Shown here: piece by piece, positions 1 through 60,645 of the stretch | Numbering within the stretch: position 1 is the stretch's first letter | How the letters are laid out: each line of letters starts with the position of its first letter | From: a virus | Virus record (IMG/VR): IMGVR_UViG_3300031957_002648 | Coordinates: 1 to 64,000 of that record | Strand: one strand, 5' to 3' | DNA length: 64,000 bases | Program-made: the position numbers and the translations under genes | Notes under the pieces: model-generated | What the model saw: the letters and a program-made list of their open reading frames with translations, nothing else | What the model was told of the DNA's origin: nothing | The model's database searches: none

Positions 1-103
1 ATCGGCAAGCAAATCCTCCCATGCTTTTTTTACAAAATCAGGTACATTTCTAGGTTCAGTCATTGGTTGTTCTCTTCGTTGTTCAGTCATTTAGATGTCC
101 TCC

Positions 104-457
104 TTAAGAATCGGAAAGTTTACGCATCAGTTCATCGTTCTCTTCAAACGTTCGTTGTCGAGCACGTTCAATGCCTTCTTCACCACAAACATCAGAATTT
201 GCTTGTGGAAGATCTACAACTTGTGGACGCATTGCTTGTTCTAGCTGGACTGCCAATACTGACGGACAAAGCTTTACCGTTGACTTGGTAGCACTTAGCC
301 ACTTAATCACTTGCTCCAACTGCCAGTCAGCAGCGGCACGCATACCTTCTACGAGGCAATCGTAATCATAATCATCGGGGTATTTTTCATACCAAGGTGA
401 CATCTCAACCAAGTGAGACATCTCTTCGATCATCTTTTCAGTCAGTGGGTGGGTCAT
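104..457 (-). CDS. hypothetical phage protein
   Basis: 117-aa ORF; its ATG overlaps the stop of the upstream small ORF (ATGA). Confidence 0.6.
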   Translation of the reverse strand: MTHPLTEKMIEEMSHLVEMSPWYEKYPDDYDYDCLVEGMRAAADWQLEQVIKWLSATKSTVKLCPSVLAVQLEQAMRPQVVDLPQANSDVCGEEGIERARQRTFEENDELMRKLSDS

Positions 458-588
458 TTGAAATTAGTGAGAGAATGGTACACTGCTTCGATGTGCATGT
501 TGCCTTTAACATATCCGGCCACTATAACACAGAGGGTGAAGAAAATCACCCCCAGTAGTGACAGAACTTGAGGAAGTGGACTCTTCAT
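454..588 (-). CDS. small membrane protein (44 aa, MKSPLPQVLSLLGVIFFTLCVIVAGY...)
   Basis: Read by hand; one hydrophobic helix; overlaps the neighbouring genes at both ends. Confidence 0.6.
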   Translation of the reverse strand: MKSPLPQVLSLLGVIFFTLCVIVAGYVKGNMHIEAVYHSLTNFK

Positions 589-956
589 CACTTCATATAC
601 AGATAACCGCCAGCCCAGTCAGCATTTTCAAGCAACCACTCACGATCTTTGATCAGCAGTAGATTGAAACGAACACCTTTAGCAGGTGCTTTGAGTGATG
701 CTGGTTTGTAGACTTCGCCAGTCTTTTTATCAACAAAAGCATGAATAGAACGGGAACCAGCACCAGTTTCCATCCAGATCTTGTGATACTTACGTCCACC
801 ATCAATGTAGAACTTGTAGTCGCTGGTGCCACCATTGTTGCGACGTTTGAAGTTATCAAGCAGAGCATCACACAGCATCAGGCAATACTTACGGATGTTA
901 AGCTGAATAGTGTTTTGTGCATCCTGTTGAGCAGCGAAGTCAGCAAGTGCAGTCAT
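588..956 (-). CDS. conserved cyanophage early hypothetical protein
   Basis: GRKYHKI...HAFVDKKTGEVYKPAS.KAPAKGVRF...DWAGGYLY motif typical of T4-like cyanophages; start placed at MTALAD, downstream of the promoter. Confidence 0.8.
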   Translation of the reverse strand: MTALADFAAQQDAQNTIQLNIRKYCLMLCDALLDNFKRRNNGGTSDYKFYIDGGRKYHKIWMETGAGSRSIHAFVDKKTGEVYKPASLKAPAKGVRFNLLLIKDREWLLENADWAGGYLYMK

Positions 957-39778: not shown

Positions 39779-40834
39779 TTAGAGTGCGTTGCCTCTCGGG
39801 AGAACTTCCTCTGGAAATACAAACTGCTCGTGTGGCTGATCTACTGGTGCCATCCATGCACGGAGCCCTTCGTTGAGCAAGATGTTCTTCGTGTAGAAGG
39901 TCTCAAATTCAGGATCTTCTGCTGCTCTAATTTCTTGAGAGACGAAATCGTAGGCACGAAGATTAAGAGCCAAGCCAATAATGCCAATGGAAGAAGTCCA
40001 GAGACCCATAACAGGAACAAAAAGCATAAAGAAATGCAACCAACGCTTATTGGAGAAGGCGATTCCAAAAATCTGGGACCAGAAACGATTGGCAGTAACC
40101 ATCGAATAGGTCTCTTCTTCTTGAGTAGGCTCGAATGCCTTGAAAGTATTTGATTGTTCACCGTCTTCATAAAGTGTGTTTTCTACAGTAGCACCGTGAA
40201 TAGCACAGAGCAGTGCTCCACCCAGTATACCAGCAACTCCCATCATGTGGAAGGGGTTGAGCGTCCAGTTGTGGAACCCTTGTAGGAACAACAGGAACCT
40301 GAAGATTGCTGCCACACCGAAGGAGGGAGCAAAGAACCAGGACGATTGTCCCAGAGGATAGATAAGAAAGACGCTGACAAAGACAGCGATGGGACCCGAA
40401 AAAGCAATCGCATTATAAGGACGGATTCCAACTAATCGAGCAATCTCAAACTGCCTGAGCATGAAACCTATGAGAGCAAAGGCTCCGTGGAGCGCCACAA
40501 AATTCCAGAGTCCGCCAAGTTGGAGCCAGCGGACGAAATCTCCCTGAGACTCAGGACCCCAAAGTAGAAGAAGAGAATGACCCATAGCGTCAGCAGGAGT
40601 TGACACAGCTGCCGTGAGGAAATTAGCGCCCTCAAGATAACTAGACGCCAATCCGTGGGTATACCAGCTTGTAACAAACGTCGTGCCAGTAAGCCAGCCA
40701 CCAATTGCCAGATAAGCAGTGGGAAAAAGTAATAGTCCAGACCAGCCCACAAATACAAAGCGGTCTCGTTTAAGCCAGTCATCGAGGACATCGAACCACC
40801 CCCTTTGCGGTATATTTAGTGTACTTGTTGTCAT
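39779..40834 (-). CDS. psbD: photosystem II D2 protein
   Basis: [16 protein letters not shown] ... [10 protein letters not shown]. Confidence 0.99.
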
Positions 40835-40980
40835 TTTTTGTCTTCCAAAGTTTTGTTTGTAATGATGATCCTCTGACCATCGTGAGTAAATTGCAATTCG
40901 TCATCAGGATGCCACAGTAACTCTTCATACATATCATCGAGTTTCTGGATGTCCTTCCATAGTGCATCTGGATCAGGCAT
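40831..40980 (-). CDS. small acidic hypothetical protein (49 aa)
   Basis: Hand translation [31 protein letters not shown]...; stop overlaps the psbD ATG. Confidence 0.65.
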
Positions 40981-41293
40981 GATGACCTCTAAGCTCAGGG
41001 TTTGGTTGTGACTTAGTTAGGTCCCTACGGGATTGGTTTTTAATAATAATGAAAGCATCTTTATTATACTTACGAGTGCCAATCGGTGACTGCCACTTCT
41101 TATTGTACTCTTCGCCAACATCAATACCAGATACAGATGTACCACCAATCTCTACATCAATCTCGTCAGTTGATTCCCAACCTAGAGTCTTGATTGTTGC
41201 TTGTACTGTGTCCATGATACCGCCTTCTTTCCAGGCAAAGTATTGTGGATCATCTTCCATAACGTGTTCTTCAGGATCGAGTTTACCAATCAT
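40973..41293 (-). CDS. conserved cyanophage hypothetical protein
   Basis: V.IGGT.VSGI......KW....GTRKYNKDAFI.IKN motif. Confidence 0.75.
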   Translation of the reverse strand: MIGKLDPEEHVMEDDPQYFAWKEGGIMDTVQATIKTLGWESTDEIDVEIGGTSVSGIDVGEEYNKKWQSPIGTRKYNKDAFIIIKNQSRRDLTKSQPNPELRGHHA

Positions 41294-41340
41294 AATAATA
41301 CCACACAAAGTAAAGGAAGTGCAATAGATGAAATACCTAT

Positions 41341-41374
41341 AAAAAACCCCGCCACATGAGTGACGGGGTGAAAA
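41341..41374 (-). terminator. intrinsic terminator of psbA
   Basis: ACCCCGTCAC-TCAT-GTGGCGGGGT followed by a T-run. Confidence 0.8.
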
Positions 41375-41389
41375 CTACCGTCAGGCATA

Positions 41390-42469
41390 TCAGCCGATAG
41401 TAGGTGCAGTTAGAGCAACAGGAGTGGACTCAACAGCAGCAAGGTCGAGAGGGAAGTTGTGAGCATTACGCTCATGCATGACTTCCATACCAAGACCAGC
41501 ACGGTTGAGGACATCAGCCCAAGTGTTGAGGACTTTACCCTGACCGTCCATAATGGACTGGTTGAAGTTGAAACCGTTCAGGTTGAAGGCCATGGTGCTA
41601 ACACCAAGTGCAGTGAACCAGATACCAACGACAGGCCATGCTGCGAGGAAGAAGTGCAGTGAACGGGAGTTGTTGAAGGATGCGTATTGGAAGATTAGGC
41701 GACCGAAGTAACCGTGAGCGGCTACAATGTTGTAGGTCTCTTCTTCTTGTCCGAACTTATATCCGTAGTTCTGGGATTCGTTCTCAGTCGTCTCTCGAAC
41801 GAGAGAAGACGTAACCAGACTTCCGTGCATAGCACTAAACAGAGAGCCACCAAATACCCCAGCAACACCGAGCATATGGAAGGGATGCATGAGAATATTG
41901 TGTTCAGCCTGGAAGACGAGCATGTAGTTGAACGTTCCAGAGATTCCCAAAGGCATTGCGTCAGAGAAGGAACCTTGACCGAAAGGATAAACAAGGAAGA
42001 CCGCAGAAGCAGCAGCAACAGGAGCGGAGTAAGCAACACAGATCCAAGGACGCATCCCCAGACGATAAGAGAGTTCCCATTCGCGACCCATGTAAGCATA
42101 GATACCGATAAGGAAGTGGAAGACAACTAGTTGGAAAGGACCACCGTTGTAGAGCCATTCGTCAAGCGAAGCGGCTTCCCAGATGGGATAGAAATGAAGT
42201 CCAATAGCATTGGACGAAGGGACAACAGCACCAGAGATGATGTTGTTACCGTACATCAGAGAACCAGCGACGGGTTCACGGATGCCGTCGATGTCCACTG
42301 GGGGAGCACCGATGAAGGCGATGATGAAACAGGTTGTAGCAGCAAGTAGGCAAGGAATCATCAGGACTCCGAACCAGCCTACATAGAGGCGATTGTTGGT
42401 TGAAGTTACCCAGTTGCAGAACTGTTCCCAAGTATTCGATTGTTGTTGACGTGAAAGAGTAGCAGACAT
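41390..42469 (-). CDS. psbA: photosystem II D1 protein
   Basis: NRLYVGWFG ... [14 protein letters not shown]; uninterrupted. Confidence 0.99.
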
Positions 42470-42484
42470 TAGTTTGAACAAAAA

Positions 42485-47438: not shown

Positions 47439-50400
47439 TTATCCGAAAATAATAGCGTTAATGATGGATGTCTCTTGGGTAACATATGCAACAGATGGTG
47501 CAATCGTCAATCCGTAGATGATTCCGAAGAATGCTGCCCCAGCTCTTGGTGCCTCAGCAAAATTCAGTGTAATTGGATCCGTTGTTCGATCAGTACCACC
47601 ACTTATATAGTATCCAACTTGTTGGAGAACATCAGGTTGTTGAACGATACCGCCAACGGAGATTAGTAATCTGGCAGAGGTTGTTATTTCACTATTTAGG
47701 TAGTTAGTGCCATCCGTTGAAAGAGTAAATTGCGTTGTAATACCATTGAATCCACTAGAAATATCATCTGCAAATTTAAACTCAGTAACATTTTGAGCAG
47801 TGAGAATTCCAACTACATTTAGATTTCCACCAATTCTAGCGTCACCACCTACATCTAGAAGCTCTTGGGGATTGGCACTACCAATACCAACAGAAGCAAT
47901 GCCTGCGTTTCCGGGTAAGAAATTATAGAATGCGGTTAGAATTGTTCCACCGACACCAACATTGAACTGGTCAAATACTGTGGCAGAAGTTCCAACAAAG
48001 TTGGTAACAACACCCGTGACTGCATAGAGTTCTTGAGTATCGACAACGGTAGAGAATAAGTTTGTGGTTCTCAGATCAGTAACTACACCAGTGACGGCCT
48101 GTAGAGTTTGTAGATCTCCAACACTGTAGTAAGCGTTGGTTCCACTCAGGTCGGTAACAACACCAGCAACAGCTTGAAGTGTTTGTAGATCTCCAACACT
48201 GTAGTAAGCGTTGGTTCCACTCAGGTCGGTGATGACGCCAGCAACACCTTGGAGAGTTTGGAAGTCACCAGTTGTGTAGTATGCATTAGATCCACTGAGA
48301 TCCGTTACAACACCAGCCACACCTTGCAGAGTTTGGAAGTCGCCAACACTGTAGTATGCATTAGTACCTGACAGATCAGTAACAACACCAGCAACTCCTT
48401 GAAGTGTCTGAGCATCTACGACACTATAGAAAGCATTGGTTCCACTTAGATCAGTAACGACACCAGATACAGCTTGGAGTGTTTGTAGATCTCCAACACT
48501 GTAGTATGCATTGGTTCCACTTAGATCAGTAACGACACCTGTAAGTCCCTGAAGCGTCTGAGCGTCAACTACATCATAGAATGCATTAGTACCGGAGAGA
48601 TCCGTTACGACACCTACAACTCCCTGAAGTGTTTGAGCATCAACAACATTATAGAATGCGTTAGTACCGGAGAGATCCGTTACAACACCAGTGACGGCTT
48701 GAAGTGTTTGGAAGTCACCAACACTGTAGTATGCATTAGTACCGGAGAGATCCGTTACGACACCAGCAACACCTTGGAGAGTCTGTGCATCAACTACGCT
48801 GTAGTAAGCGTTAGTACCACTTAGGTCAGTTACGACACCAGCAACTCCTTGAAGTGTCTGAGCATCAACTACATTATAGAATGCGTTAGTACCGCTAAGA
48901 TCAGTTACAACACCAGTTACAGCCTGAAGTAGTTGTGCATCCAGAGTATTGACAAACAAAGAATTGTCAATATTCAGATTGGTAATAATACCAGAGACTG
49001 CATTAAGTGTGGTGATACCTGCATACTGAATATATGCATCAGTTGCAATGAATCCAAAGGTAGTAAGAATACCAGAGATAACTAGATCATTAACCTCAAG
49101 TTGATTGAGAGTTGTAATTCCAGTGACCTCAAGGTTTCCACCAACAGCTCCATCACCATCAATGACAAGGGATGGTGTCTCAACTGGTCCTTCAAATGTA
49201 GATGGACCAGTGACGAATAGATTATTAGTAGTTACTACACCTGTTGCTTCTAAAGTCTCACCAACAAATCTAAGTGCAGTAACAATTCCAGTAAAGTCTC
49301 CGTTACCATCGCTGCTGATTGTAACAGCAATACCAATGGTAGGATCTCCTACATTCAATCCAACTCTTGCAGTAACAAGGCCAATCGAGTCTACATTTCT
49401 GACATCTTCATAAGTGAGAACTCCACCAACTGCCAAGTCACCTGTGACAGTTAGATCCTGAGTAATTGTTGCGAATCCATTGACCTGAAGGCCTCCTTGA
49501 ACTGTTACATCAGTAGAAGTTAATGTCGTTACTACACCAGAAACTCCTTGTAGAGTCTGAGCATCAACAACATTATAGAATGCATTAGTACCAGACAGAT
49601 CCGTAATTACTCCAACAACTCCTTGTAGAGTCTGGAAGTCACCAACACTATAGAAAGCATTTGTTCCACTCAGATCTGTAATTACACCAGACACACCCTG
49701 AAGTAGTTGTGCATCCAGAGTATTAACGAAGAGTGTATTATCAATGTTTAGATCAGTTATAACACCAGAGACTGCATTAAGTGTCTGAACATCTACAGTG
49801 TTGTAGAAAGCATTAGTACCAGACAGGTCAGTAACAACACCGGTAACTGCATATAACTCCTGTGTATCAACTACATTAGAGAATATATTGGTGGTGTTTA
49901 AATCGGTAATTGTTGCAGCGGTGCCAGTGAAGTTTGTAATTACACCACTAACTGCATATAGCTCCTGAGTATCAACAACTGTGGAGAATATATTGGTGGT
50001 GTTTAGATCGGTAATTGTTGATGCAGTGCTAGTAAAGTTTGTGATTACACCAGACACACCCTGAAGTAGTTGTGCATCCAGAGTATTAACGAAAAGTGTA
50101 TTATCAATATTCAGGTTAGTAATAATACCAGAGACTGCATTTAAAGTCTGGAAGTCACCAATGTTATAGAATGCATTGGTTCCATTTAGATCTGTGATAG
50201 TACCGGTGCCAGCATTGATGTTTCCATTGAATGCGTTGGCAGTAACAACACCAAGAACATTTACATCACCTTCAATAAGAACTTGTCCGGTGAGAGTGGT
50301 GAGTCCTACAACATCTAGAGCCGTGACGGAAGCAATACCACCGATAACACTAGTGGCAACTCCAGATAATTCAGAGAAGTCTGCTGATTGAGCTTCTTGT

Positions 50401-53400
50401 ACTCTAACAATATCTACATCAACGATTGTCCCATCAACAATATTTGGAGTAACAAGTACAGTGAGACCAGTTCCAACAAAGTTAATTGTTGTGAAAGATG
50501 CGCCAACAAAATCGCCTGCAGACTGAATACCAATCGCAGCATTAAAGTTACTGCTAAGACCACTGAATCTATTATCAGCCGTACCATCAAATCTGGATGC
50601 AGTAACTACGCCAGTAGAGTTAAGTTGATCTACCGAGGCGAGACCACCAGTAAAGTTGGTAATAACACCAGTTACAGCCTGAAGTAGTTGTGCATCCAGA
50701 GTATTAACAAACAAAGAATTGTCAATACTTAGATTAGTAATAATACCAGTGACGGCTTGTAGAGTCTGGAAGTCTCCAACACTATAGTAAGCGTTAGTAC
50801 CACTGAGGTCAGTTACGACACCAGTTACAGCATAAAGTTCTTGAGTGTCAGTAACCGTAGAGAATGAATTGGTTGTCCTTAGATCAGTAATTGTCGCTGC
50901 AGTTGCAGTAAGATTTGTAACTACACCACTAACTGCAAAGAGTTCTTGAGTATCGACAACGGTAGAGAATGAGTTTGTAGTTCTCAGATCGGTGACAACA
51001 CCAGCAACAGCCTGTAGAGTCTGGAAATCACCAACGTTATAGAATAGGTTGGTTCCACTGAGATCCGTTACAACACCAGTGACGGCTTGTAGGGTTTGGA
51101 AGTCACCAACGTTATAGTATAGGTTGGTTCCATTTAAATCTGTTATAGTGCCGGTGCCAGCGTTAATGTTTCCATTGAATGCGTTAGCAGTAACAACACC
51201 AAGAACATTTACATCACCTTCGACTAGGACTTGCCCGGTTAGAGTAGTAAGTCCGGTTACATCTAGAGACGTGACAGAAGCAACACCACCAATGACATTA
51301 ATTGCTGTCTCAGCTTCATCAGCACCAGCAACTCTGAGGATGTTGATATTTCCTTGAGTGATGTTGCCTGGTTCTGGATCAACTGTAACAACTAGATTTG
51401 TACCACTGAAATTGAGATTGGTAAATGCTCCACCAACATATGTTCCCGCAGAAGATAGTCCAACAGCAGCATTAAAATTGCTACTTAGACCAGTAAATCT
51501 ATCATCAGCAGCACCAATAAAGTTAGTGGCAGTAATAACACCACCGACACTAATGTCATTCTCAACCAGAACTTGTCCCGTAAGAGTAGAAATGCCAGAG
51601 ACATCTAGAGTAGTTACGGAAGCAATACCACCAATGACATTGATTGCTGTCTCAGCATCATCAGCAGCAGCAACTCTAAGGATATTGATATTTGCTTGTG
51701 TAATGTTTCCGGGTTCTGGATCAACAGTAACTTCAAGGTTTGTGCCGATAAAGTTTAGTTGAGTAAAGGCACCACCAACATATGTTCCTGCAGATAGAAT
51801 ACCAACAGCAGCATTGAAGTTGCTGCTAAGACCACTGAATCTATTATCAGCGGTTCCGTCAAGTCTAGAAGCAGTAACTACGCCAGTAGAGTTAAGTTGA
51901 TCTACTGAAGCAAGGCCACCAGTGAAGTTGGTAATAACACCAGTGACTGCATTTAGAGTTTGTAGATCACCAGTTGTGTAGAATGCATTAGTGCCGCTAA
52001 TATCAGTAACTACACCAGCAACAGCCTGTAAAGTCTGAGCATCAACTACACTGTAGTATGCATTAGTACCACTTAGATCTGTAACAATACCAGTAACAGC
52101 CTGTAGAGTCTGAGTATCTACAACACTGTAGTATGCATTAGTGCCAGAAAGATTCGTTACGACACCAGTTTGAGCATACAGTTCTGTAAAGATTCCAACA
52201 TTAGCCTTAACAGTGCCACTTACATCCAAATCAGCGTTAACATCAACAAAGTCTTGGAAAGTGGATACTCCAGTGACTTGTAGTTGTGCTAAAGAAGTAA
52301 TACCTGTGGCATAAAAATCTTTAGTAGTAAGAATGCCACTAAAGTTACCATTGATTGCATTAATATTATCAAGACTTAAATCTTCAGCAATGTATAGATC
52401 GCCACCAACATATAGATCGCCACCGGTTGTGGTGATGCCACCTTGGCCCGCCAAAGTTACAGCAATACCAGTAGGATCTGCTAGTCCAGCAACAGATAGT
52501 GCAGTTCCGACTAGAACATTCGTGAGAGTTGTAAATCCAGCACTGTTAATATTTTCAATAGTAGCAGCAGTGCTAGTGAAGTTAGTGATAACGCCACTAG
52601 TATAATACAGATTCTCACCACTCATAGTGGTGCCAATACCAACTTCAGTGTTCAGAATATCAAAGTTTCCATAGTCAAAGTCAGCATTTTGTCCTGCCAG
52701 AGCCGTAATAAATCCAGTCTGTGCAAATACTGATCTGATGCCAGCGTTGTTATTGACAACAAGATCATCAGTTATTAGATTGGTAATTGTACCAATACCA
52801 GATAGAATTTGACCATTGAAGGTTAGAGCTGTAGCAACTCCAAGAACAATAAGTTCTCTCAGCTCACCAACATCTTCAAGACTTGACTCTGTAATAGTTG
52901 GACCAAGGACTCCTGCAGAAAGAACAGTATCTACTCCAACCTTATATGCACCAGTTGCAGTGACACCTAATCCAGTATCAGATTGAAGAACGCCAGCACT
53001 ATATGAATAAACAAAATTCTTTTGAATGTTCTCGGATCCAATTCCAATACCTGCTCCGTCAAGTAAGAACTCGGTTGCAATACCAGTAGCGATAGCAACC
53101 TTGAAGTCGGCAAGTTCAATGATGGAAGAGTCTACAGTAAACTGACTACCATCAACGAATAGATCTCCTCTGATCCTTACAATACCACTATTAATTCCAA
53201 GTGGAGATTGTGGATCAATGAAGATAATTTCTGGGCCAAGAATAGTATCTGTACTGATTGTAAAACCAGAAGATCCTGCACCAGTTACAAAGAGTGGAGC
53301 ATTAATTGATGATCCAGCAGAAACCGTTCCGTCAAGTCTAGATTCACCAATAACACTTAATCCACCACCAACTAAGGCGTCACCTTGTACATCTAAAGTG

Positions 53401-55100
53401 TTGTTGATGTCAGTAAATCCACCAATGGTGGTGACACCAGTAATAATAACGCTAGATCCAATAGAAACATTCTCATCAAATGTTGAGTTCTGTTCAAAGA
53501 ATGAGATGTTTTGGAATGTAGTTACACCGGTTACTAGGAAATCGGAATCAACAATGACAGAATTTCCAGCAGAGTCAAGTGTTAGAATTCCAACATTAGT
53601 ATCAATAATATTTTCTCCAGTGATTGCTAGATTAATATCATTAATTCTAGCTCCATTGTTTGCATCAAGGAGATCATTGAGTGTAGTGATTCCAGTAACG
53701 AGTAAGTTCTCATCAATCGTTACATCAACCAAGAAGGAAGCATCACTCTGGAATGTAGAAGGTCCAGTGACAGTAGAAGCACCACTGACAAGTAGATTTT
53801 GATCTACAGTTGCATCTTGTTGGAAGGTAGCATCAGACTGGAAGGTAGAAATACCCTCAACATTTAGAGAACTATTTGCATCAATCGCACCGGCAAATGT
53901 AGAGACACCAGATACGTTAAGATCATCTAGCTCAGTTTGTCCATCGACATCAACATCACCATTGGCATCAAGAGCTCCAGTTAGTGTAGTAACACCAGCA
54001 ACAGTCAATCCAGCACCTAAAACATTTAGTGTGCGAGCTGTGGCAATACCAGTTACATTCAATAATATTGTAGTAAAATCTTCTACATTAACAAACTTGG
54101 CATCAACTGTACCAGTGCTAAGAATGCCACTACGAATAGTTGTACCACCACCAACAAAAACAGTAGTATCTTCACTGAATGTAGCAATACCAGCATCTAC
54201 ATCTAAGAAATCTCTGACAGTTAATACACCAATATTAGCCTGGTTTACAGTAATACCAATACCAGTAAAGGTGGCAATGCCCTGACTTCTAAACTGTACA
54301 GTTTCAAAATCAAATACATTTACAAAATTAGCATCAACAGTACGAGTGCTGATGATACCGCTAGTGATGGTAGTTAAACCACCGACTTGTAATGGGCCTC
54401 CAGTAGATGCAATGGAAATGCCATTAAAGAATGTAGATGGTCCTACAAATGTAGAAATGCCATTTACAAATAAATTTTCAGTTTCAATATCACCAAAGTC
54501 ACCAAAAGATCCATCGATACTAAGAGCCGTCAGGACACCAGTAACGTTTAGATTACCATCGATCTGAGCATCACCAACTACATCTAAGAAGTATTGAGGG
54601 ATAGTGCTACCAATACCTACCTTACGAGTGGTGTAGATACCAGCAGTTTCTTCATCTGTAGATTCACCAGACCTATCTCTAAGCCATCTGGGATCCAATC
54701 TAATATCAGCTAAGTTCGGGTTGATTGTGTTTGTACTAATACCCAACAACTGATCTGAAATAATGTTAATTCCTGTGAAGGAAGTAACACCTAAAATATC
54801 TCCGTCTTCTGCAATAAAAATAGCGTTCGTATCAAAAGGTGGGGCTGCCACCCATCTCAGTCCATCAATATCTCTGGTTAGGAAGTATGCAAACTCACCA
54901 TCAGAACCATCAACGTCAATAATTCTTGTTGCTTTGAGATCTCCTCTTATATCTAAATTATAATCGGCAACAAATTCAGTCGAACCTATACCCGCACGAC
55001 CAACAAGACCGAAGACATCCCTCTCTTCAGAAAATCCAGGTACGCCGATTCTGGAGTCTGGTACTCTGCCATTAGAGTACCTGATTGGTTGCTTCGCCAT
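47439..55100 (-). CDS. giant repeat-rich tail-fibre/adhesin-like protein (2553 aa)
   Basis: GISTF beta repeats, 25-aa tandem repeats, C-terminal DDISS.FNG...F.L...GGI.QQP domain. Confidence 0.85.
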   Translation of the reverse strand: MAKQPIRYSNGRVPDSRIGVPGFSEERDVFGLVGRAGIGSTEFVADYNLDIRGDLKATRIIDVDGSDGEFAYFLTRDIDGLRWVAAPPFDTNAIFIAEDGDILGVTSFTGINIISDQLLGISTNTINPNLADIRLDPRWLRDRSGESTDEETAGIYTTRKVGIGSTIPQYFLDVVGDAQIDGNLNVTGVLTALSIDGSFGDFGDIETENLFVNGISTFVGPSTFFNGISIASTGGPLQVGGLTTITSGIISTRTVDANFVNVFDFETVQFRSQGIATFTGIGITVNQANIGVLTVRDFLDVDAGIATFSEDTTVFVGGGTTIRSGILSTGTVDAKFVNVEDFTTILLNVTGIATARTLNVLGAGLTVAGVTTLTGALDANGDVDVDGQTELDDLNVSGVSTFAGAIDANSSLNVEGISTFQSDATFQQDATVDQNLLVSGASTVTGPSTFQSDASFLVDVTIDENLLVTGITTLNDLLDANNGARINDINLAITGENIIDTNVGILTLDSAGNSVIVDSDFLVTGVTTFQNISFFEQNSTFDENVSIGSSVIITGVTTIGGFTDINNTLDVQGDALVGGGLSVIGESRLDGTVSAGSSINAPLFVTGAGSSGFTISTDTILGPEIIFIDPQSPLGINSGIVRIRGDLFVDGSQFTVDSSIIELADFKVAIATGIATEFLLDGAGIGIGSENIQKNFVYSYSAGVLQSDTGLGVTATGAYKVGVDTVLSAGVLGPTITESSLEDVGELRELIVLGVATALTFNGQILSGIGTITNLITDDLVVNNNAGIRSVFAQTGFITALAGQNADFDYGNFDILNTEVGIGTTMSGENLYYTSGVITNFTSTAATIENINSAGFTTLTNVLVGTALSVAGLADPTGIAVTLAGQGGITTTGGDLYVGGDLYIAEDLSLDNINAINGNFSGILTTKDFYATGITSLAQLQVTGVSTFQDFVDVNADLDVSGTVKANVGIFTELYAQTGVVTNLSGTNAYYSVVDTQTLQAVTGIVTDLSGTNAYYSVVDAQTLQAVAGVVTDISGTNAFYTTGDLQTLNAVTGVITNFTGGLASVDQLNSTGVVTASRLDGTADNRFSGLSSNFNAAVGILSAGTYVGGAFTQLNFIGTNLEVTVDPEPGNITQANINILRVAAADDAETAINVIGGIASVTTLDVSGISTLTGQVLVENDISVGGVITATNFIGAADDRFTGLSSNFNAAVGLSSAGTYVGGAFTNLNFSGTNLVVTVDPEPGNITQGNINILRVAGADEAETAINVIGGVASVTSLDVTGLTTLTGQVLVEGDVNVLGVVTANAFNGNINAGTGTITDLNGTNLYYNVGDFQTLQAVTGVVTDLSGTNLFYNVGDFQTLQAVAGVVTDLRTTNSFSTVVDTQELFAVSGVVTNLTATAATITDLRTTNSFSTVTDTQELYAVTGVVTDLSGTNAYYSVGDFQTLQAVTGIITNLSIDNSLFVNTLDAQLLQAVTGVITNFTGGLASVDQLNSTGVVTASRFDGTADNRFSGLSSNFNAAIGIQSAGDFVGASFTTINFVGTGLTVLVTPNIVDGTIVDVDIVRVQEAQSADFSELSGVATSVIGGIASVTALDVVGLTTLTGQVLIEGDVNVLGVVTANAFNGNINAGTGTITDLNGTNAFYNIGDFQTLNAVSGIITNLNIDNTLFVNTLDAQLLQGVSGVITNFTSTASTITDLNTTNIFSTVVDTQELYAVSGVITNFTGTAATITDLNTTNIFSNVVDTQELYAVTGVVTDLSGTNAFYNTVDVQTLNAVSGVITDLNIDNTLFVNTLDAQLLQGVSGVITDLSGTNAFYSVGDFQTLQGVVGVITDLSGTNAFYNVVDAQTLQGVSGVVTTLTSTDVTVQGGLQVNGFATITQDLTVTGDLAVGGVLTYEDVRNVDSIGLVTARVGLNVGDPTIGIAVTISSDGNGDFTGIVTALRFVGETLEATGVVTTNNLFVTGPSTFEGPVETPSLVIDGDGAVGGNLEVTGITTLNQLEVNDLVISGILTTFGFIATDAYIQYAGITTLNAVSGIITNLNIDNSLFVNTLDAQLLQAVTGVVTDLSGTNAFYNVVDAQTLQGVAGVVTDLSGTNAYYSVVDAQTLQGVAGVVTDLSGTNAYYSVGDFQTLQAVTGVVTDLSGTNAFYNVVDAQTLQGVVGVVTDLSGTNAFYDVVDAQTLQGLTGVVTDLSGTNAYYSVGDLQTLQAVSGVVTDLSGTNAFYSVVDAQTLQGVAGVVTDLSGTNAYYSVGDFQTLQGVAGVVTDLSGSNAYYTTGDFQTLQGVAGVITDLSGTNAYYSVGDLQTLQAVAGVVTDLSGTNAYYSVGDLQTLQAVTGVVTDLRTTNLFSTVVDTQELYAVTGVVTNFVGTSATVFDQFNVGVGGTILTAFYNFLPGNAGIASVGIGSANPQELLDVGGDARIGGNLNVVGILTAQNVTEFKFADDISSGFNGITTQFTLSTDGTNYLNSEITTSARLLISVGGIVQQPDVLQQVGYYISGGTDRTTDPITLNFAEAPRAGAAFFGIIYGLTIAPSVAYVTQETSIINAIIFG
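48003..48902 (-). repeat. 12 consecutive 75-nt coding repeats (DLSGTNAYYSVGDFQTLQAVTGVVT)
   Basis: Counted in the translation; more copies at about 49540-50190, 50660-51150 and 51930-52170. Confidence 0.9.
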
Positions 55101-55107
55101 TTCAATC

Positions 55108-55452
55108 TTAGATGTTTGTTGTTTCTAGAACGCTTAATAAAAACTTTAGGCCTGGAGTTGTGCTACCAACTGTCACTAACTTATCTCCTGTTTCCAGAAC
55201 AAGTTTTCCAGATAGAAGAGCCGCTGTTTCATCTGCAGGAATAGGAATAGATTTTATCAGATCAACATCATCTTGACCTTCTCTTCTAAAACCTAGAGTA
55301 AATGTTTCTGTCTCAGTGCTGATGTTTGTTGTTTGGGCAAGGAGAACAATGCCAACAAATCCAATAGGAGCTTCATATACCTCAGTGGTATTGATTCCAA
55401 CAATTTGTGTAACTGTTTTAAACTGATTAACAGCTGCTGCTGCAATTGCCAT
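55108..55452 (-). CDS. small virion structural protein
   Basis: N.FKT...Y.AP.G...IVL.AQ..N...GKLVLETGD.L...LS.LET family. Confidence 0.8.
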   Translation of the reverse strand: MAIAAAAVNQFKTVTQIVGINTTEVYEAPIGFVGIVLLAQTTNISTETETFTLGFRREGQDDVDLIKSIPIPADETAALLSGKLVLETGDKLVTVGSTTPGLKFLLSVLETTNI

Positions 55453-55455
55453 TGA

Positions 55456-58400
55456 TTACTCTCCTCCTAGTGCCAGAATGAATGGTGTTACCTGTACAAA
55501 TAAACTCTTAGAATAATCTCTACCAGATACTGTACCTGTTGTTTGGTTAATCACAACCCCATCACCGATTCTAAAGTTACCTCTTTCATCCGTGCTTGTG
55601 TAAATAACCTCACCACCATCAACTTTGATGACTTCATCCTCTTGTCTGGAAACTCCACCGCGAGATGGATATGCAAATTCAATAGTGTTACCTGCTCCAA
55701 TAAACTCAAATGAATGAGATGATGCAATTTGCAGGCTCTGTCTAGAGAAATATGCAGTGCTTCCTACACCTACGTCATTATTTAGGGTCTGTACCAAAGT
55801 CACTGTGCTGATTCCAGCGTAAGGAGTTGTAGCAGAATCAACACCATAATAAACTGGAGTCATTAATGCTGTAGCAGCTGCTCCAACTCCTGTAGTATCT
55901 CCTGGTTGATTGGTAAAAGTAATGCTAGGAGCATACTGATACTGTAGACCCTGAGACAATAGATTGACTGTGGTTACTTTACCATCAGCATCAATGCTAG
56001 ATGTTGCCTGAGCATTAATTGCGTTACCAGGACCAGTTGGGAATTCTATATTAACTTTTGGTGGTAATGTATATCCAGATCCACCATCAGTAACTAAAAT
56101 GTCCTCAATAGTCGTGTATAATTCATCAAAGTATAATGCCTGACCACCATAAGGTTTGAATGTACCGACACCAGAAACTTGTATTGTAGAACTTCCTCTA
56201 GTAGACGTATTGACAACTCTAGCAGTATATCTATCAGCAGAGCTTGTAGTATTATCACCAACGCCAATAGCAATCAGACCTCTAGTACCAAAAGAAGAGT
56301 TGGAGTTAGTAAGGTCAAGTTGACCACCCTTGACTGCAGAGATAGCAGTATCACAACAGATAGTAAAGATTGACACCAACTGACAATAAGCACCGTTGGA
56401 TACGGAAACACCAATGCCACCTTGGTTGAACTGAGTGTAAGAGTCCACGTTGAATGAACCCTGAATGCCCAGATCATTTTCCTGATCTCCCTCATCAGCT
56501 GCAAATCCATCGATTCTAGCACCAATACTATTCTTGATAAAGTTGGTGCAGTTAATAATATATGGTCCCTTACGAATGATACCTACACCTTGAGAAGGAA
56601 TTGCATCGGGATCAGTCTGACCAGCTCCAGCGTTACCAGGATATGTGGTCGTAAAACCTGCCCATGGTTCTGGGGCTGTAGTTCCAAGTCCAACATTATC
56701 AAGATAATTTTGTAGAATACCAGTTACAATACCAATACAAGATCTAATAGCAGAGACTACGTTTGCACATCCTTGTAGATCTCTGTTCCAACCAAAGACA
56801 GGATCTCCCTGCATGGATAGGTCTCTTAGTTGAGTAAACTCTTCTTGGAAATTTCCAAATCTTTGGACGGTTCCTCCACTTGTATAAATGTGGTTGATTG
56901 TCGAAATGCCTACTACGGATTCAAATCTAGTAGAATCAATAACTTTATACACATCATAAATTTGGCCAAGTCTGGCGGATGGGAACACAACTTCCGTAAC
57001 TCCACCATCATATAAACATGTAAATCCTAGACCAACAAGTTCGACTGGATCGTCAATCGATAAGTTATGAGATTCGTTTGTTGTGATAGTTACAATACCA
57101 ATATCATTATCATATTCAGCAGCAATAACATTTACATTCGTTCCGATTGGGAATTGACCGGCACCAACATTATTGATTACAGATCTAACAGGTTTGAATA
57201 CATGATTCAAAGTTGCAATGGTCTGTTCAATTTCTTCATTCCTTCTGAGGAATGTATCAATCAATGATCCATCATCATTGAAGTATGACTTTGCAGCACC
57301 AATACACTTGGAGTTACCACCCCTAGTGATGTCATGGGCTACTGATAGGAGAATAGTTCCGACATCTAGAGCACACTTGTCAATATCATCAATGTCAACA
57401 CCAAACACTGTTGTAATTCCAGTGAGGTAAGATACTCCTGTTCCAATACTGTTGGTCACAATGCCTGCCAGGTTCTCAATGGTAGCACCAACTGCAACAC
57501 ATCCTTCAGATACTCTGAGAACAGATGGGCTAATAGATTGTCCTAATGTTGTATACTTCTTAACTTTCTGAGAACTGCCGGTGTCTGGAATATAATTGTG
57601 AATGATGCTGGAGATACCAACATTTGTGACGTATGTGGTGAGACCAACAACGCTATCAACAACAAAATTGAGACCTCTTGGACTTAGATTGAGATCTTCT
57701 ACTGGGAAAACATTTGTCGTAACACCAGATACTCTAACAATACCTCCACTGACATATGTGTGTGCAAAACCTACAGTCTCAATAGGAATAGTAAAATCTG
57801 TAGACGTTCCTACAGAGCTAACAGTGTAGTTACCAATATACTTAACACCATATAAGAATCCACCACTGTCATAGACATGATCAATTGTGGAAATTCCAGC
57901 ATTGATTGTTAATGTGCTGGAACCAACAGATATAACTTCAAATTCACTACCTTGAGTTCCATCTGGGAATACTGTAGTAGTAATACCAATCTTAATTTTA
58001 CCACCCTGATCATAAGTATGAGCGATGGTGCTGATACCAACGTTCGTAACTAAAGTTGTTCCAGCAGAACCAGCTAGAACATTGTAAATGAATCCTTGTG
58101 TACCATCTGGGAAGAACGTAGTCGTAACTCCAGCGTGCTCTACAGAACAAGTAAATTCAATATCACGAAGTTCTACTAAATCACCATCGATTAATCCGTG
58201 ATTCTCTACAGTAAGAATCGTACTTACTCCAGTCGCAGCATCATACTGGAAATCATAAATTAAAATCTCGTTATTATATGGCAAGCATGTAAATGCAACA
58301 CCAGTCAGATTGACCGTCTCACCAGCAGTAATGTTATGATCTTTCTTCAGAGTGACTGTTGATAGGCCGGTGCTCTTATCATATTCAAAATCTTGAATTG

Positions 58401-60645
58401 CAAATTCAATACCAAGTCTGCTTGGGAATATGTTAGTAGTGATTCCAGTCTGTACTGTTCCGCCACTAACATAAGTATGAGCAAATCCAACTGCACCAAC
58501 GTTAGCTTCAAATTGATTTCCAGAATTTACTTTCTGTACTTTATATTGATCTGCGTATTGTACTTCAGATAAGATACCATGAGAAGCATAGGTGTGAGCA
58601 ATAGTAGAAATGCCAGCATTGATTACAAGAGTAGAGGAACCAACAGAGACAACTCTAAACGTATCACCTTGAGTTCCATCTGGGAAGATAGTTGTAGTGA
58701 CACCAGCGTGTTCTACTCCACAAGTAAACTCAATGTCAGCTAGTTTAACGTCAGCACCTGCTAAGATATTATGATTTTTATTTAAGGTAATTGTAGAAAC
58801 ACCTGTTGACTCAGTGTAAACAAAGTCGGAAATACCATACTCGATACCTTGAGTGCTTGGGAATACATCTGTTGTGATTCCAGTCTCTACACTACCGCTC
58901 CCTTCATAAACGTGAGGAATGGTTGACGTACCAACTTGAGTTGTGAATGTGGTAGAACCAACAGCAGTGATGACTGTGTTAAAGATTCTCCCATTAGTGC
59001 CATCAGGGAAAATGGTTGTAGTGACACCAGCGTGCTCAACTGCACATGAGAACTCAAGGTCAGAAAGCCTTAGAGACATTCCTCTGTTGAGTAGGTGAGG
59101 AGCATCGGTGGTAACTGTTAAGATGCCACTTACATTATCATAAGAAGCTGTAGAGATTCCAAAGATGGTATCAAAACCTTTGGAACATTCCATCTTAATG
59201 TCATGGAATTTGATTGCCATCCCAGCAGCTAGAAGATGATCTCCACTGGTAGTCACTGTCATGACACCAGAAACGTTATCATAGTCAGCAGCGGTGATAC
59301 CTAGAAGACTATCATAAGATTTTGTACAACTAAACTCTATACCATCAAATGAAACTGCTTGTCCGGTTGTAATTCCATGAGCAGTCTTTGTGATTACTGT
59401 AGAAACTCCTGAGACATTATCATATTGGAAATCGTAAATATCAACTGTATTATTATATGGTGAGCATGTAAATGCTAGACCAACTAGATTGACAATATCA
59501 TTTGCAACAAGACTATGTGCAACTCCCGTAGTTACAGTGGCTACACCAGTTGATTCTGTATAGTCAAACGAATTAATATTAAGAGCATTGCCAACTAAAA
59601 GACCACTACTATATGGACGGTTGTTAATGACATCAGTTGAGATGGCTACGGCACGTTCAATTGCCTCAATAGTTGCATCCGCAATACTATATCCATTACT
59701 ATCAACACCATCAACGTGATCTAGAACTCCACCAGTAAAGTATGACTGTGCTGCACCAATAGATTTTTTATTGCTATTAGACTTGAGATCATTAGAGATA
59801 GCTCTAATCAAATCTTTAATATCATCACTGCAATTATCAGCACTGAGAGGAGCACCACCACTATCACTAATAACAAAAGGAGGATCTAGATAATCGGTAG
59901 ATGTTAGATATCCAACTGCTTCTTCCGCAATAAAATCAATATTTTGATCAAGTAATCTAGCAGCATCCTGTGCTCTGTTTCCACCAGCAAATCCACTGAG
60001 TCCACTGGTCAAAAAACCAACTGCTTCAGTTCTAAGGTACTTTAGATTCTGTCTAATGAGTCTTGCAGCATCAAAGAATCTATCAGAGGAAACTCCTAAG
60101 AGTGGTCTAAAAGCAATTACAGCTGCATCATTACTGACTGTACCAACAAAAGAAAGATCCTGAACTGTTCCACCACCACCCAACCAAATTAAATCTTCTG
60201 TGGTATTCTGTGGTTGAAGTAAAGTGTTTCTAAGATCGGCACCCGCAAGGGTGACGAAATCTTGCATTACAATTGGATTGTCTTCGATGTAAGTTCCGCC
60301 ATCGATTTTAATGACATCTCCAGGAGTCGCAATGCCAGCGGCTTTCTTGATGGTAAGGAAGGGGAAGTCGGGGGAGTCGCCTTGGTTAAGATCATCACCA
60401 TTTGTTGCTACAAACCATGTATTTCCAGGAGGAACATTGTTGATATTGATTATTCTTGTACCAACACCAACACCTGCAGTATCTTGTTTTACTGACAGTG
60501 TACCATCAAAATAATTATAAGCTAATTCACCTTGAAGAAGATCATCAACGCTAGGTCTTCTACCTTTAACGGATGTCCTTCTAGTTTGTATTCTCGTAGA
60601 GCTATTAACTCCTACATTTATTGAATCGCTATCAGGTGCTGCCAC
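55456..60645 (-). CDS. virion structural protein: beta-helix with nested helical and beta-barrel domains (1729 aa)
   Basis: N-terminal GELA.N..DG.L motif, WFVA.NG.D...PF.TI..A beta-helix start, YTQ.NQGG.G, HSFE.IG.G, STD..GNF.IG. Confidence 0.85.
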   Translation of the reverse strand: MAAPDSDSINVGVNSSTRIQTRRTSVKGRRPSVDDLLQGELAYNYFDGTLSVKQDTAGVGVGTRIININNVPPGNTWFVATNGDDLNQGDSPDFPFLTIKKAAGIATPGDVIKIDGGTYIEDNPIVMQDFVTLAGADLRNTLLQPQNTTEDLIWLGGGGTVQDLSFVGTVSNDAAVIAFRPLLGVSSDRFFDAARLIRQNLKYLRTEAVGFLTSGLSGFAGGNRAQDAARLLDQNIDFIAEEAVGYLTSTDYLDPPFVISDSGGAPLSADNCSDDIKDLIRAISNDLKSNSNKKSIGAAQSYFTGGVLDHVDGVDSNGYSIADATIEAIERAVAISTDVINNRPYSSGLLVGNALNINSFDYTESTGVATVTTGVAHSLVANDIVNLVGLAFTCSPYNNTVDIYDFQYDNVSGVSTVITKTAHGITTGQAVSFDGIEFSCTKSYDSLLGITAADYDNVSGVMTVTTSGDHLLAAGMAIKFHDIKMECSKGFDTIFGISTASYDNVSGILTVTTDAPHLLNRGMSLRLSDLEFSCAVEHAGVTTTIFPDGTNGRIFNTVITAVGSTTFTTQVGTSTIPHVYEGSGSVETGITTDVFPSTQGIEYGISDFVYTESTGVSTITLNKNHNILAGADVKLADIEFTCGVEHAGVTTTIFPDGTQGDTFRVVSVGSSTLVINAGISTIAHTYASHGILSEVQYADQYKVQKVNSGNQFEANVGAVGFAHTYVSGGTVQTGITTNIFPSRLGIEFAIQDFEYDKSTGLSTVTLKKDHNITAGETVNLTGVAFTCLPYNNEILIYDFQYDAATGVSTILTVENHGLIDGDLVELRDIEFTCSVEHAGVTTTFFPDGTQGFIYNVLAGSAGTTLVTNVGISTIAHTYDQGGKIKIGITTTVFPDGTQGSEFEVISVGSSTLTINAGISTIDHVYDSGGFLYGVKYIGNYTVSSVGTSTDFTIPIETVGFAHTYVSGGIVRVSGVTTNVFPVEDLNLSPRGLNFVVDSVVGLTTYVTNVGISSIIHNYIPDTGSSQKVKKYTTLGQSISPSVLRVSEGCVAVGATIENLAGIVTNSIGTGVSYLTGITTVFGVDIDDIDKCALDVGTILLSVAHDITRGGNSKCIGAAKSYFNDDGSLIDTFLRRNEEIEQTIATLNHVFKPVRSVINNVGAGQFPIGTNVNVIAAEYDNDIGIVTITTNESHNLSIDDPVELVGLGFTCLYDGGVTEVVFPSARLGQIYDVYKVIDSTRFESVVGISTINHIYTSGGTVQRFGNFQEEFTQLRDLSMQGDPVFGWNRDLQGCANVVSAIRSCIGIVTGILQNYLDNVGLGTTAPEPWAGFTTTYPGNAGAGQTDPDAIPSQGVGIIRKGPYIINCTNFIKNSIGARIDGFAADEGDQENDLGIQGSFNVDSYTQFNQGGIGVSVSNGAYCQLVSIFTICCDTAISAVKGGQLDLTNSNSSFGTRGLIAIGVGDNTTSSADRYTARVVNTSTRGSSTIQVSGVGTFKPYGGQALYFDELYTTIEDILVTDGGSGYTLPPKVNIEFPTGPGNAINAQATSSIDADGKVTTVNLLSQGLQYQYAPSITFTNQPGDTTGVGAAATALMTPVYYGVDSATTPYAGISTVTLVQTLNNDVGVGSTAYFSRQSLQIASSHSFEFIGAGNTIEFAYPSRGGVSRQEDEVIKVDGGEVIYTSTDERGNFRIGDGVVINQTTGTVSGRDYSKSLFVQVTPFILALGGE

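What the first reader, a model, noticed from the sequence alone, without database searches (positions are those of the whole stretch)
57560..59585. Recursive, branched 'Russian-doll' domain architecture in a virion protein
Seen: an approximately 90-aa unit (intact stand-alone copy at about 56865-57140) has three parts. N = Y....G..T.T...H....G..V.L..I.F.C; M = GVTT..FP; C = F.V..V....F...G.S.I.H.Y..GG. In this stretch the parts are not tandem but read like balanced brackets: N(A) N(B) N(C) [complete D] M(C) [complete E] C(C) M(B) N(F) [complete G] M+C(F) C(B) M+C(A). That is seven copies arranged as the tree A(B(C(D,E),F(G))), always inserted at the same two loops (after the Cys and after FP). 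Inference: the chain folds into a dendritic cluster of beta-barrels rather than beads on a string, produced by repeated insertion of the domain into itself. It may act as a multivalent adhesion head.
Basis: partly seen in the sequence, partly recalled or inferred. Interest (0 to 1): 0.82.

Follow-up and report, generated by a model that had tools for sequence, protein, structure and literature searches.

The report
Self-nested beta-barrel tree in cyanophage fibre protein
A 1,729-residue tail-fibre-type protein of a marine T4-like cyanophage carries seven copies of one small beta-barrel domain inserted into each other's loops four levels deep, and close relatives differ by whole domains or whole layers; this build is published for cyanobacterial RNA polymerase, but I found no paper describing it in virus particles.

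Summary
In the minus-strand gene 55456-60645 (1,729 aa), residues 357-1026 hold 7 N parts, 7 M parts and 7 C parts of a ~90-aa unit. Their order parses only as A(B(C(D,E),F(G))). An eighth, intact unit lies at aa 1172-1262.

A profile built from the four uninterrupted units alone finds complementary half-matches at the predicted places.

The unit is a beta-barrel like the FCCH domain of ubiquitin E1 (Z up to 11.0) and the inserted barrel of the phi92 endosialidase.

- **Nesting, F(G).** An AlphaFold model of F(G) gives two barrels, the outer one made from both ends of the chain. That is nested, not crossed.
- **Relatives.** A 97%-identical relative lacks exactly G. Another, 83% identical over aligned residues, lacks one N part plus one M-unit-C block, so a whole layer is gained or lost together.
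- **Weak point.** The 700-aa model did not reproduce the bracket partners at levels B, C and G. The full tree therefore rests on sequence and comparison.

The adhesion role is untested. Recursive self-insertion is published for RNA polymerase Si3, so this is a new variant, not a new kind. This scan has already reported the same build in other cyanophage genomes, with deeper trees.

The parts
55456..60645 (-). Gene for the 1,729-aa tail-fibre-type protein (P0001), GTG start
   Evidence: ORF list and translation. PHROG 3442 and 17885 'tail fiber protein'. The homologue P0003 starts at the same place.
59461..59577 (-). N(A), aa 357-395: first half of the outermost barrel
   Evidence: N HMM 47.7 bits. 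N-only profile match 59461-59586.
59323..59439 (-). N(B), aa 403-441
   Evidence: N HMM 49.6 bits. N-only profile match 59317-59448.
59182..59298 (-). N(C), aa 450-488
   Evidence: N HMM 49.5 bits. N-only profile match 59179-59304. Most of this part, with the tail of N(B) and the linker (aa 439-485), is absent from P0008.
58882..59157 (-). Unit D, aa 497-588: uninterrupted barrel in loop 1 of C
   Evidence: Full profile match. Folds as a barrel in the 700-aa model, range 147..249.
58843..58881 (-). M(C), aa 589-601 (GITTDVFP...)
   Evidence: Motif anchor at 589, alignment. Missed by the short M HMM.
58561..58833 (-). Unit E, aa 605-695: uninterrupted barrel in loop 2 of C
   Evidence: Full profile match. 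Model range 256..357.
58447..58557 (-). C(C), aa 697-733: closing half of C
   Evidence: C HMM 45 bits. C-only profile match 58450-58548.
58408..58446 (-). M(B), aa 734-746
   Evidence: M HMM 14.9 bits, motif anchor at 734.
58285..58401 (-). N(F), aa 749-787: first half of F, which sits in loop 2 of B
   Evidence: N HMM 49.4 bits. N-only profile match. Forms the outer barrel with aa 887-934 in the F(G) model.
57988..58260 (-). Unit G, aa 796-886: uninterrupted barrel in loop 1 of F
   Evidence: Full profile match. Inner barrel of the F(G) model, ranges 44-49..143-148. Absent from P0003 and P0008.
57844..57987 (-). M+C(F), aa 887-934: closing half of F
   Evidence: M+C profile match 57853-57987. 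Outer barrel in the F(G) model. Directly follows N(F) in P0003.
57730..57840 (-). C(B), aa 936-972: closing half of B
   Evidence: C HMM 21 bits. Closest paralogue is C(C), 46% identity. Retained in P0008 together with an N(B)-like N part.
57568..57726 (-). M+C(A), aa 974-1026: closing half of the outermost barrel
   Evidence: M+C profile match 57589-57729. C(A)-like C parts occur mostly with N(A)-like N parts in uninterrupted units of relatives.
56860..57132 (-). Unit H, aa 1172-1262: stand-alone uninterrupted barrel after the second helical region
   Evidence: Full profile match 56854-57141.

Best explanation
Residues 357-1026 of this cyanomyovirus tail-fibre-type protein fold into seven FCCH-like beta-barrels that form a tree, not a chain.

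Each barrel is made of an N half (four strands, ending in F-x-C), a short M strand (G-[IV]-T-T-x-x-F-P) and a C half (ending in H-x-Y-x-x-G-G). It can hold another whole barrel, or a whole subtree, in loop 1 (Cys to M) or loop 2 (M to C). The chain runs outward through the unfinished N halves of A, B and C, completes the innermost barrels D and E, and then closes C. It next builds F around G and finally closes B and A.

The whole 670-residue cluster therefore enters and leaves its helical support at a single point.

Inferred: the innermost barrels can fold first and the outer ones only after their late C halves have emerged. Layers are added or removed by paired unequal recombination between paralogous N parts and between paralogous M parts.

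Inferred, about 40-45% likely: the cluster is a variable surface-binding head, probably glycan-binding, of a beta-helix fibre or spike. Its copy number changes quickly between related phages.
For: **Parse and chance.** The bracket parse and its low chance probability come. An unbiased profile of the four intact units finds complementary half-matches.

**Fold.** Matches to the E1 FCCH barrel reach Z 11.0, rmsd 1.8 A, 77 aligned residues (7pvn_A). Other matches: 4p22_B Z 10.0 and phi92 endosialidase 4hiz Z 9.6. On the F(G) model, 4p22_B scores Z 9.5 and 4hiz_A 8.9.

**Nested rather than crossed pairing for F(G).** The model has mean pLDDT 77 and pTM 0.53. Match ranges fall only into 1..191/192 (71-83 aligned residues) or 44-49..143-148.

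**Barrels form across long inserts** in the 700-aa model too: range 450..634 with 77 aligned residues.

**Relatives.**
- P0003 (97% identical) lacks exactly G, and its F is uninterrupted.
- P0008 (83% identical over aligned residues) lacks aa 439-485 (one N part) and aa 595-739 (M tail + E + C(C) + M head) together. Its joints are hybrid, and an N(B)-like N part is kept with a C(B)-like C part.
- The uninterrupted first unit of P0059 and P0019 best matches N(A) and C(A).
- 16 of 25 C(A)-like C parts in uninterrupted units go with an N(A)-like N part.

**Family-wide.** P0134 has 31 N and 31 C parts in a balanced word of depth 8; P0009 has 16 and 16. Independent BFVD models of cyanophage fibre and gp7 proteins superpose on the two-barrel nest (TMq up to 0.73).

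**Setting.** The window is a T4-like cyanophage with psbA/psbD and a baseplate hub. The protein has PHROG tail-fibre matches.
Against: - The 700-aa AlphaFold model (mean pLDDT 65.7, pTM 0.29) left aa 835-936 unfolded. It paired N(G) with C(B), and the ranges 53/55..396 suggest N(B) with C(C). It did not reproduce the bracket partners.
- No coordinates were available, so pairing was read only from first and last aligned residues.
- The match between N-part and C-part similarity under bracket pairing is only modest (r 0.32, rank 2,673 of 40,320 pairings).
- Only 103 of 272 family proteins tokenise as balanced. Many are fragments or have a divergent last C part.
- Everything structural here is prediction.
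- No evidence bears directly on binding, on oligomeric state or on presence in the virion.
Confidence: 0.8

Rival explanations
1. Barrels do form from distant N and C halves, but not strictly by bracket partner. Some halves are exchanged between neighbouring barrels (crossed or domain-swapped pairing), giving an interdigitated body rather than a clean tree.
For: In the 700-aa model N(G) pairs with C(B) (range 450..634), and the ranges 53/55..396 suggest N(B) with C(C). [quoted passage not shown]
Against: That model is low-confidence exactly there: aa 835-936 have pLDDT below 50, and pTM is 0.29. Its alignment was thin in that region because the closest rows lack G. F(G) folded alone with a deeper alignment gave only nested ranges. 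In P0008 an N(B)-like N part must pair with a C(B)-like C part, as the brackets predict.
Confidence: 0.12
2. The architecture is as described, but the cluster has no binding role. It would be structural ballast, a spacer or a stabilising decoration of a baseplate or fibre protein, and copy-number change would be neutral.
For: No ligand site was identified. The same unit occurs in giant gp7-type baseplate proteins (BFVD match E3SL21 'baseplate wedge initiator'). Barrels of this fold serve many roles.
Against: Copy number changes among relatives 83-97% identical (8, 7 and 5 units), which is typical of host-recognition proteins. The nearest phage structural relative is the inserted barrel of an endosialidase tailspike. 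From memory, the corresponding barrel in K1F endosialidase binds sialic acid. This evidence is indirect.
Confidence: 0.35
3. N, M and C parts are independent small modules, or pair with their sequence neighbours. The balanced order would then be a by-product of block duplications.
For: Runs of N parts (three to eight in a row) look like tandem arrays. The blocks M(C)-E-C(C) and M(B)-F-C(B) are tandem paralogues.
Against: Counts are exactly equal and the order is grammatical (p about 2e-5). Half-profile matches are complementary. In uninterrupted units the same parts form one barrel. In F(G) the two ends of the chain form one barrel around G. Relatives never differ by an unpaired part.
Confidence: 0.04
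4. Assembly artefact of a repetitive gene.
For: Repeats can be mis-assembled in metagenomes.
Against: The identical 1,729-aa protein is on 4 JGI contigs, and a cluster member of the same length on 2 Logan contigs. DNA copies are only 63-75% identical. The frame is open throughout. Hundreds of relatives share the build.
Confidence: 0.01

Closest known systems
Si3 insertion of cyanobacterial and plastid RNA polymerase beta' (RpoC2): recursively inserted SBHM / HABAS domains
   Same: One small beta domain acts as both host and guest, repeatedly. Eight SBHMs are not in tandem, and four of them are built from distant chain segments (crystal and cryo-EM structures, PMC10895346). It has been described as a six-level recursive insertion with branching nodes (PMC13114784) and as HABAS domains inserted into other HABAS domains (PMC11515920).
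   Different: The fold class differs: here the best matches are FCCH-type barrels, and no RNA polymerase chain was among the 50 rows shown in any of the three PDB fold searches. The setting differs too: a phage fibre-type protein rather than the trigger loop of a polymerase. Here there are two fixed insertion loops with strongly conserved motifs, and copy number varies between near-identical relatives. This instance is 4 levels deep; relatives reach 8-9 by my tokeniser.
FCCH domain of ubiquitin-activating enzymes (Uba1, UBA6, UBA7; Pfam E1_FCCH PF16190)
   Same: Best structural match of the unit: Z 11.0, rmsd 1.8 A, 77 aligned residues, 19-25% identity. From established knowledge, FCCH is itself a domain inserted into the inactive adenylation domain of E1.
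   Different: Pfam membership is not reached: E 0.072 for one of four units, and no hit for the whole protein. FCCH is not known to host copies of itself. There is no link to ubiquitin chemistry here.
Inserted beta-barrel domain of phage endosialidase tailspikes (phi92, PDB 4hiz; K1F endoNF)
   Same: Same barrel fold (Z 9.6 and 8.9, rmsd 2.1 A, 81-83 aligned residues). It is in a phage host-recognition protein and is inserted into another domain.
   Different: It is a single copy inserted into a sialidase propeller. No propeller or sialidase was detected here, and the host domain here is another copy of the barrel.
I-domain of P22 / Sf6 coat proteins
   Same: A six-stranded barrel inserted into another fold of a virion protein; weaker fold match (Z 5.5-6.9).
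   Different: Single insertion in the HK97 fold, capsid rather than tail, and no recursion.
Split domains that project ligand-binding domains in RTX adhesins (AhLap; PMC12077191)
   Same: A host domain interrupted so that a guest domain sticks out sideways from a fibre. In those adhesins this arrangement marks ligand-binding modules (abstract).
   Different: Host and guest are different folds, there is one level only, and these are bacterial adhesins.

Membership tests
Recursive self-insertion architecture (type example: RNA polymerase beta' Si3) | The same domain family serves as host and as guest | tested here: met
   All 8 N, 8 M and 8 C parts align to one unit. A profile of the intact units finds the split halves.
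Recursive self-insertion architecture (type example: RNA polymerase beta' Si3) | At least two levels of nesting, with a guest that is itself a host | tested here: met
   The parse A(B(C(D,E),F(G))) has 4 levels and 2 branching nodes.
Recursive self-insertion architecture (type example: RNA polymerase beta' Si3) | Discontinuous segments fold into one domain around the guest | tested here: met
   Met for F(G), by prediction only: outer barrel ranges 1..192 with 71-83 aligned residues, inner barrel about 46..145. For A, B and C the 700-aa model was inconclusive; support there is comparative.
Recursive self-insertion architecture (type example: RNA polymerase beta' Si3) | The domain is an SBHM / HABAS hybrid motif | tested here: inconclusive
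   No RNA polymerase chain was among the 50 rows shown; the best matches are FCCH barrels. A family that is not listed is not excluded.
E1_FCCH (Pfam PF16190) | Sequence score above Pfam's gathering threshold | tested here: not met
   No Pfam family on P0001. One of four units at E 0.072. The relative P0018 scores 29.3 bits against a cut-off of 29.5.
E1_FCCH (Pfam PF16190) | FCCH barrel fold | tested here: met
   Z 11.0, rmsd 1.8 A, 77 aligned residues (7pvn_A). 48 chains score Z >= 8; the 30 listed are E1-family enzymes (Uba1, UBA6, UBA7) plus phi92 endosialidase. The next rows are at Z 7.0.
Phage tail-fibre proteins (PHROG 17885, 5342; PHROG 3442 of unknown function) | Profile match to the family | tested here: met
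   phrog_3442 1,194 bits; phrog_17885 'tail fiber protein' E 3e-280. Cultured-phage homologues are annotated as tail fibre or 'putative major tail protein'. These names are annotations, not tests.
Phage tail-fibre proteins (PHROG 17885, 5342; PHROG 3442 of unknown function) | Presence in the virion and a role in adsorption | not testable with these tools
   Needs virion proteomics and adsorption assays.
Endosialidase tailspike | Sialidase beta-propeller that hosts the barrel | not tested
   Only the barrel region was modelled. No Pfam sialidase match on the whole protein.

The most novel reading that the evidence does not exclude
Cyanophage host-recognition proteins evolve by growing and pruning a tree of self-inserted FCCH-like barrels. 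Paired unequal recombination between paralogous half-domains adds or removes a whole layer in a way that keeps every barrel complete. The series P0008 (5 units), P0003 (7) and this protein (8) would then capture such steps at 83-97% identity. The tree would be a tunable multivalent glycan-binding head whose shape sets host range. This would be a way of generating protein shape and binding diversity that has not been described for virus particles.
Probability: 0.3. Interest if true: 0.8.

Novelty: new variant of a known kind. Interest (0 to 1): 0.62.

Why it matters
Most repeat proteins are beads on a string; here the chain encodes a branched object.

- **Annotation.** It shows that domain annotation which expects contiguous domains misses this family: Pfam reports nothing on a protein that holds eight copies of one domain.
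- **A second case.** It gives a second, independent natural case of deep self-insertion beside RNA polymerase Si3, in a different fold. That allows the question of which properties make a domain both a good guest and a good host (termini close together, two tolerant loops).
- **Evolution.** The near-identical relatives with 5, 7 and 8 units offer a natural series for studying how such trees fold and evolve. They also allow a test of whether copy number tunes adsorption of abundant marine cyanophages.

Tried and rejected
- **Close DNA relatives.** Megablast of the gene against the phage collection found nothing. A viral-contig scan with peptides of the segment found nothing, so no DNA-level comparison of the indel joints was possible.
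- The DNA of P0003 and P0008 could not be fetched, so the direction and mechanism of the indels remain inferred from protein alignments.
- **Solved structures by sequence.** Only a weak match of aa 77-121 to the start of a GH120 xylosidase (E 0.75), and SlpX at E 0.15 for the unit profile.
- **Pfam.** Nothing on the protein.
- **N-part versus C-part similarity.** Under bracket pairing the agreement is only modest (r 0.32, top 6.6% of all pairings). The table of best N against best C for 272 uninterrupted units had 49 on the diagonal against 32 expected, with clear signal only for A. I do not lean on these.
- **The 700-aa AlphaFold model.** It did not resolve the whole tree. Model coordinates are not exposed, so contacts could not be listed.
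- **The 114-aa ORF 55108-55452.** It hits the same PHROG 1276 as the unit region, but a different part of that profile, and it has none of the N/M/C motifs. It is not a free copy of the barrel.
- **Literature.** Searches for cyanophage together with nested, recursive or Russian-doll insertion found no paper on virion proteins in the held library. Absence from that library is not proof of absence.
Full report
**Where and what.** The finding lies in a minus-strand ORF, 55456-60645, which encodes 1,729 residues (P0001). The window is part of a 76-kb fragment of a T4-like cyanomyovirus. It carries psbA and psbD, a baseplate hub and several fibre genes. P0001 matches PHROG 3442 and the tail-fibre PHROGs 17885 and 5342, but no Pfam family. 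Homologues occur in 116 cultured cyanophage records, annotated variously as tail fibre, 'putative major tail protein' or hypothetical.

**Checking the observation.** Motif anchors give eight F-x-C ends, seven G[IV]TT..FP plus one variant, and eight H-x-Y. The eight N parts (39 aa), eight M parts and eight C parts (about 37 aa) each align almost without gaps, and part HMMs score them at 21-54 bits.

In aa 357-1026 the order is NNNN MC M NMC C M NN MC MC C MC. Under the grammar unit = N [units] M [units] C, this has one parse: A(B(C(D,E),F(G))). Guests sit only in loop 1 (after the Cys) or loop 2 (after FP). Only 7,752 of 399,072,960 orders are grammatical (1.9e-5).

It returned:
- four full matches;
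- four matches to profile positions 2-45;
- two matches to positions 47-93;
- one match to positions 62-94.

All lie at the predicted places in this ORF. The protein was seen on several independent contigs, and the DNA copies are only 63-75% alike, so the pattern is real.

**What the unit is.** In both models the unit is a small beta-barrel. The best structural matches are:
- the FCCH domain of ubiquitin-activating enzymes: Z 11.0, rmsd 1.8 A, 77 aligned residues, 19-25% identity. Of 48 chains with Z >= 8, the 30 listed are E1-family enzymes plus the phi92 endosialidase, and the next rows are at Z 7.0;
- the inserted barrel of the phi92 endosialidase tailspike: Z 9.6 and 8.9.

Weaker matches are to barrels of the FAD-binding, riboflavin-synthase and EF-Tu-domain-II type, to lambda gpJ, to N4 and Sf11 tail proteins, and to the P22/Sf6 I-domain.

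From established knowledge, FCCH, the endosialidase barrel and the I-domain are themselves inserted domains. This fold therefore has its two ends close together and suits the role of guest.

Sequence membership in Pfam E1_FCCH is not reached, and no solved structure is related by sequence. The family is small: 378 representative clusters among 1.84 billion proteins, mostly giant proteins.

**Do bracket partners really pair?**

*Structure prediction.* F(G) alone (aa 745-936) was modelled with an alignment of 27 relatives at 33-54% identity, most of them 43-54%. It gave mean pLDDT 77 and pTM 0.53. In the search against 48,161 solved chains, every row had one of two kinds of range:
- 1..191/192 with only 71-83 aligned residues;
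- 44-49..143-148 with 68-94 aligned residues.

That is what a nested pair gives: the outer barrel from both ends, the inner barrel in the middle. A crossed pairing would give 1..145 and 46..192, and none was seen.

The 700-aa model of the whole cluster was poorer (mean pLDDT 65.7, pTM 0.29):
- D and E fold as barrels.
- A barrel is formed across a 100-residue gap (range 450..634).
- But aa 835-936 are unfolded, so N(G) takes C(B) as partner, and the ranges 53/55..396 suggest N(B) with C(C).

*Comparison with relatives.*
- P0003 is 97% identical and lacks 94 residues. In it, N(F) runs straight through F-T-C and a seven-residue linker into M+C(F), so it lacks exactly G.
- P0008 and P0007 tokenise alike; in the alignment made for P0008 (83% identical over aligned residues) G is absent. 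It also lacks two separate blocks: aa 439-485, one N-part length, which leaves a hybrid of the N(B) head and the N(C) tail; and aa 595-739, the M(C) tail plus E plus C(C) plus the M(B) head, which leaves a hybrid M.
- Their tree is A(X(D,F)). One N part and one M-unit-C block are thus gained or lost together, as the brackets require. The surviving barrel joins an N(B)-like N part with a C(B)-like C part.
- For A: in the 1,371-1,375-aa relatives the unit after the first helical region is uninterrupted. It best matches N(A) (113 against 90 or less) and, narrowly, C(A). Among 272 uninterrupted units, 16 of the 25 with a C(A)-like C part have an N(A)-like N part.
- Family-wide, balanced words of great depth occur: P0009 has 16 N and 16 C parts, P0134 has 31 and 31, both of depth 8. 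Many proteins fail to tokenise as balanced, mostly because they are fragments or have a divergent last C part.

**How it most likely works.**

*Shown.* The sequence grammar, the fold class of the unit, nesting of F(G) in a model, and co-variation of partners among relatives.

*Inferred.*
- The cluster is a branched body attached at a single point between two helical regions.
- It folds from the inside out.
- Layers arise or vanish by unequal recombination between paralogous N parts and between paralogous M parts. This fits the internal paralogy: E is closest to F, N(B) is similar to N(C) (44% identity), C(B) is closest to C(C), and M(B) is closest to M(C).
- A single tandem duplication cannot create a nest, so at least two events, or one replacement of a loop by a whole unit, are needed for each step.

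*Function.* A variable binding head is plausible but untested. The grounds are the rapid change in copy number, the endosialidase analogy, and the split-domain rule in RTX adhesins (PMC12077191).

**Comparison with what is known.** Recursive self-insertion is established for the Si3 region of cyanobacterial RNA polymerase. There, eight SBHM domains include four that are discontinuous (PMC10895346), and the region has been described as six-level recursive insertion (PMC13114784) and as HABAS domains inserted into HABAS domains (PMC11515920).

The present case has the same logic in a different fold and setting, with fixed insertion loops and fast turnover. I found no paper describing it for virus particles in the held library. 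BFVD already holds predicted models of cyanophage fibre and gp7 proteins that superpose on the two-barrel nest.

This scan has reported the same build before in at least 34 other genomes, with deeper trees in gp7-type and fibre-type proteins. One of these shares short sequence words with this unit. Another first-reader note on this same gene says the nesting continues outward, into helical regions and then a beta-helix; I did not test that.

**Verdict.** The nested-barrel reading is well supported for F(G), and supported by comparison for the other levels. The adhesion role is open. This is a new variant of a known kind. The instance is modest in depth (4 levels), but it is informative because close relatives show single steps of gain or loss.

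Noticed in passing
window 55456-60645, aa 70-170 and about aa 1345-1480: The N-terminal stretch looks like the start of a right-handed beta-helix (weak match of aa 77-121 to the start of a GH120 xylosidase, E 0.75). Beta-helix-like sequence resumes near aa 1345. Between them lie two similar helical regions (about aa 255-345 and 1045-1160), each ending in V-I-N-N and each followed by barrels. The barrel tree may itself sit inside a larger nest, as another first-reader note (e1-6087509) says.
   Followed up: no
window 12947-13045 and 14042-14140 (minus strand, in ORF 10694-16714): Two weak matches (E 2e-4 and 2.5e-3) of the barrel profile, N half only (profile positions 5-37 and 11-43), inside the 2,006-aa tail-fibre protein (PHROG 529). 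This may be a remote or degenerate relative of the unit in a second fibre gene.
   Followed up: no
window 47439-55100 (minus strand): The next gene downstream encodes a 2,553-aa protein. Much of it consists of many copies of a roughly 21-residue repeat (for example T-G-V-V-T-D-L-S-G-T-N-A-Y-Y-S-V-G-D-F-Q-T-L-Q-A-V). It has only a weak PHROG match to a baseplate wedge subunit.
   Followed up: no
every barrel unit in window 56860-59577: Across 561 distinct N parts and 476 distinct C parts of the family, three features are strongly conserved: a His in the N part (about 70%), the Cys that ends the N part (at least 90%), and the His-x-Tyr of the C part (at least 90%). They could form a metal or ligand site in each barrel. 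Geometry could not be checked without coordinates.
   Followed up: partly
window 55108-55452 (minus strand): A 114-aa ORF between the two giant genes hits PHROG 1276 (E 3.7e-11). The same PHROG hits aa 486-581 of the fibre protein, but through a different part of the profile. The ORF has none of the N/M/C motifs.
   Followed up: partly
window 39779-42481 (minus strand): Two photosystem II reaction-centre genes, both matching the D1 PHROG and probably psbD and psbA, lie close together. They mark the record as a cyanophage.
   Followed up: no
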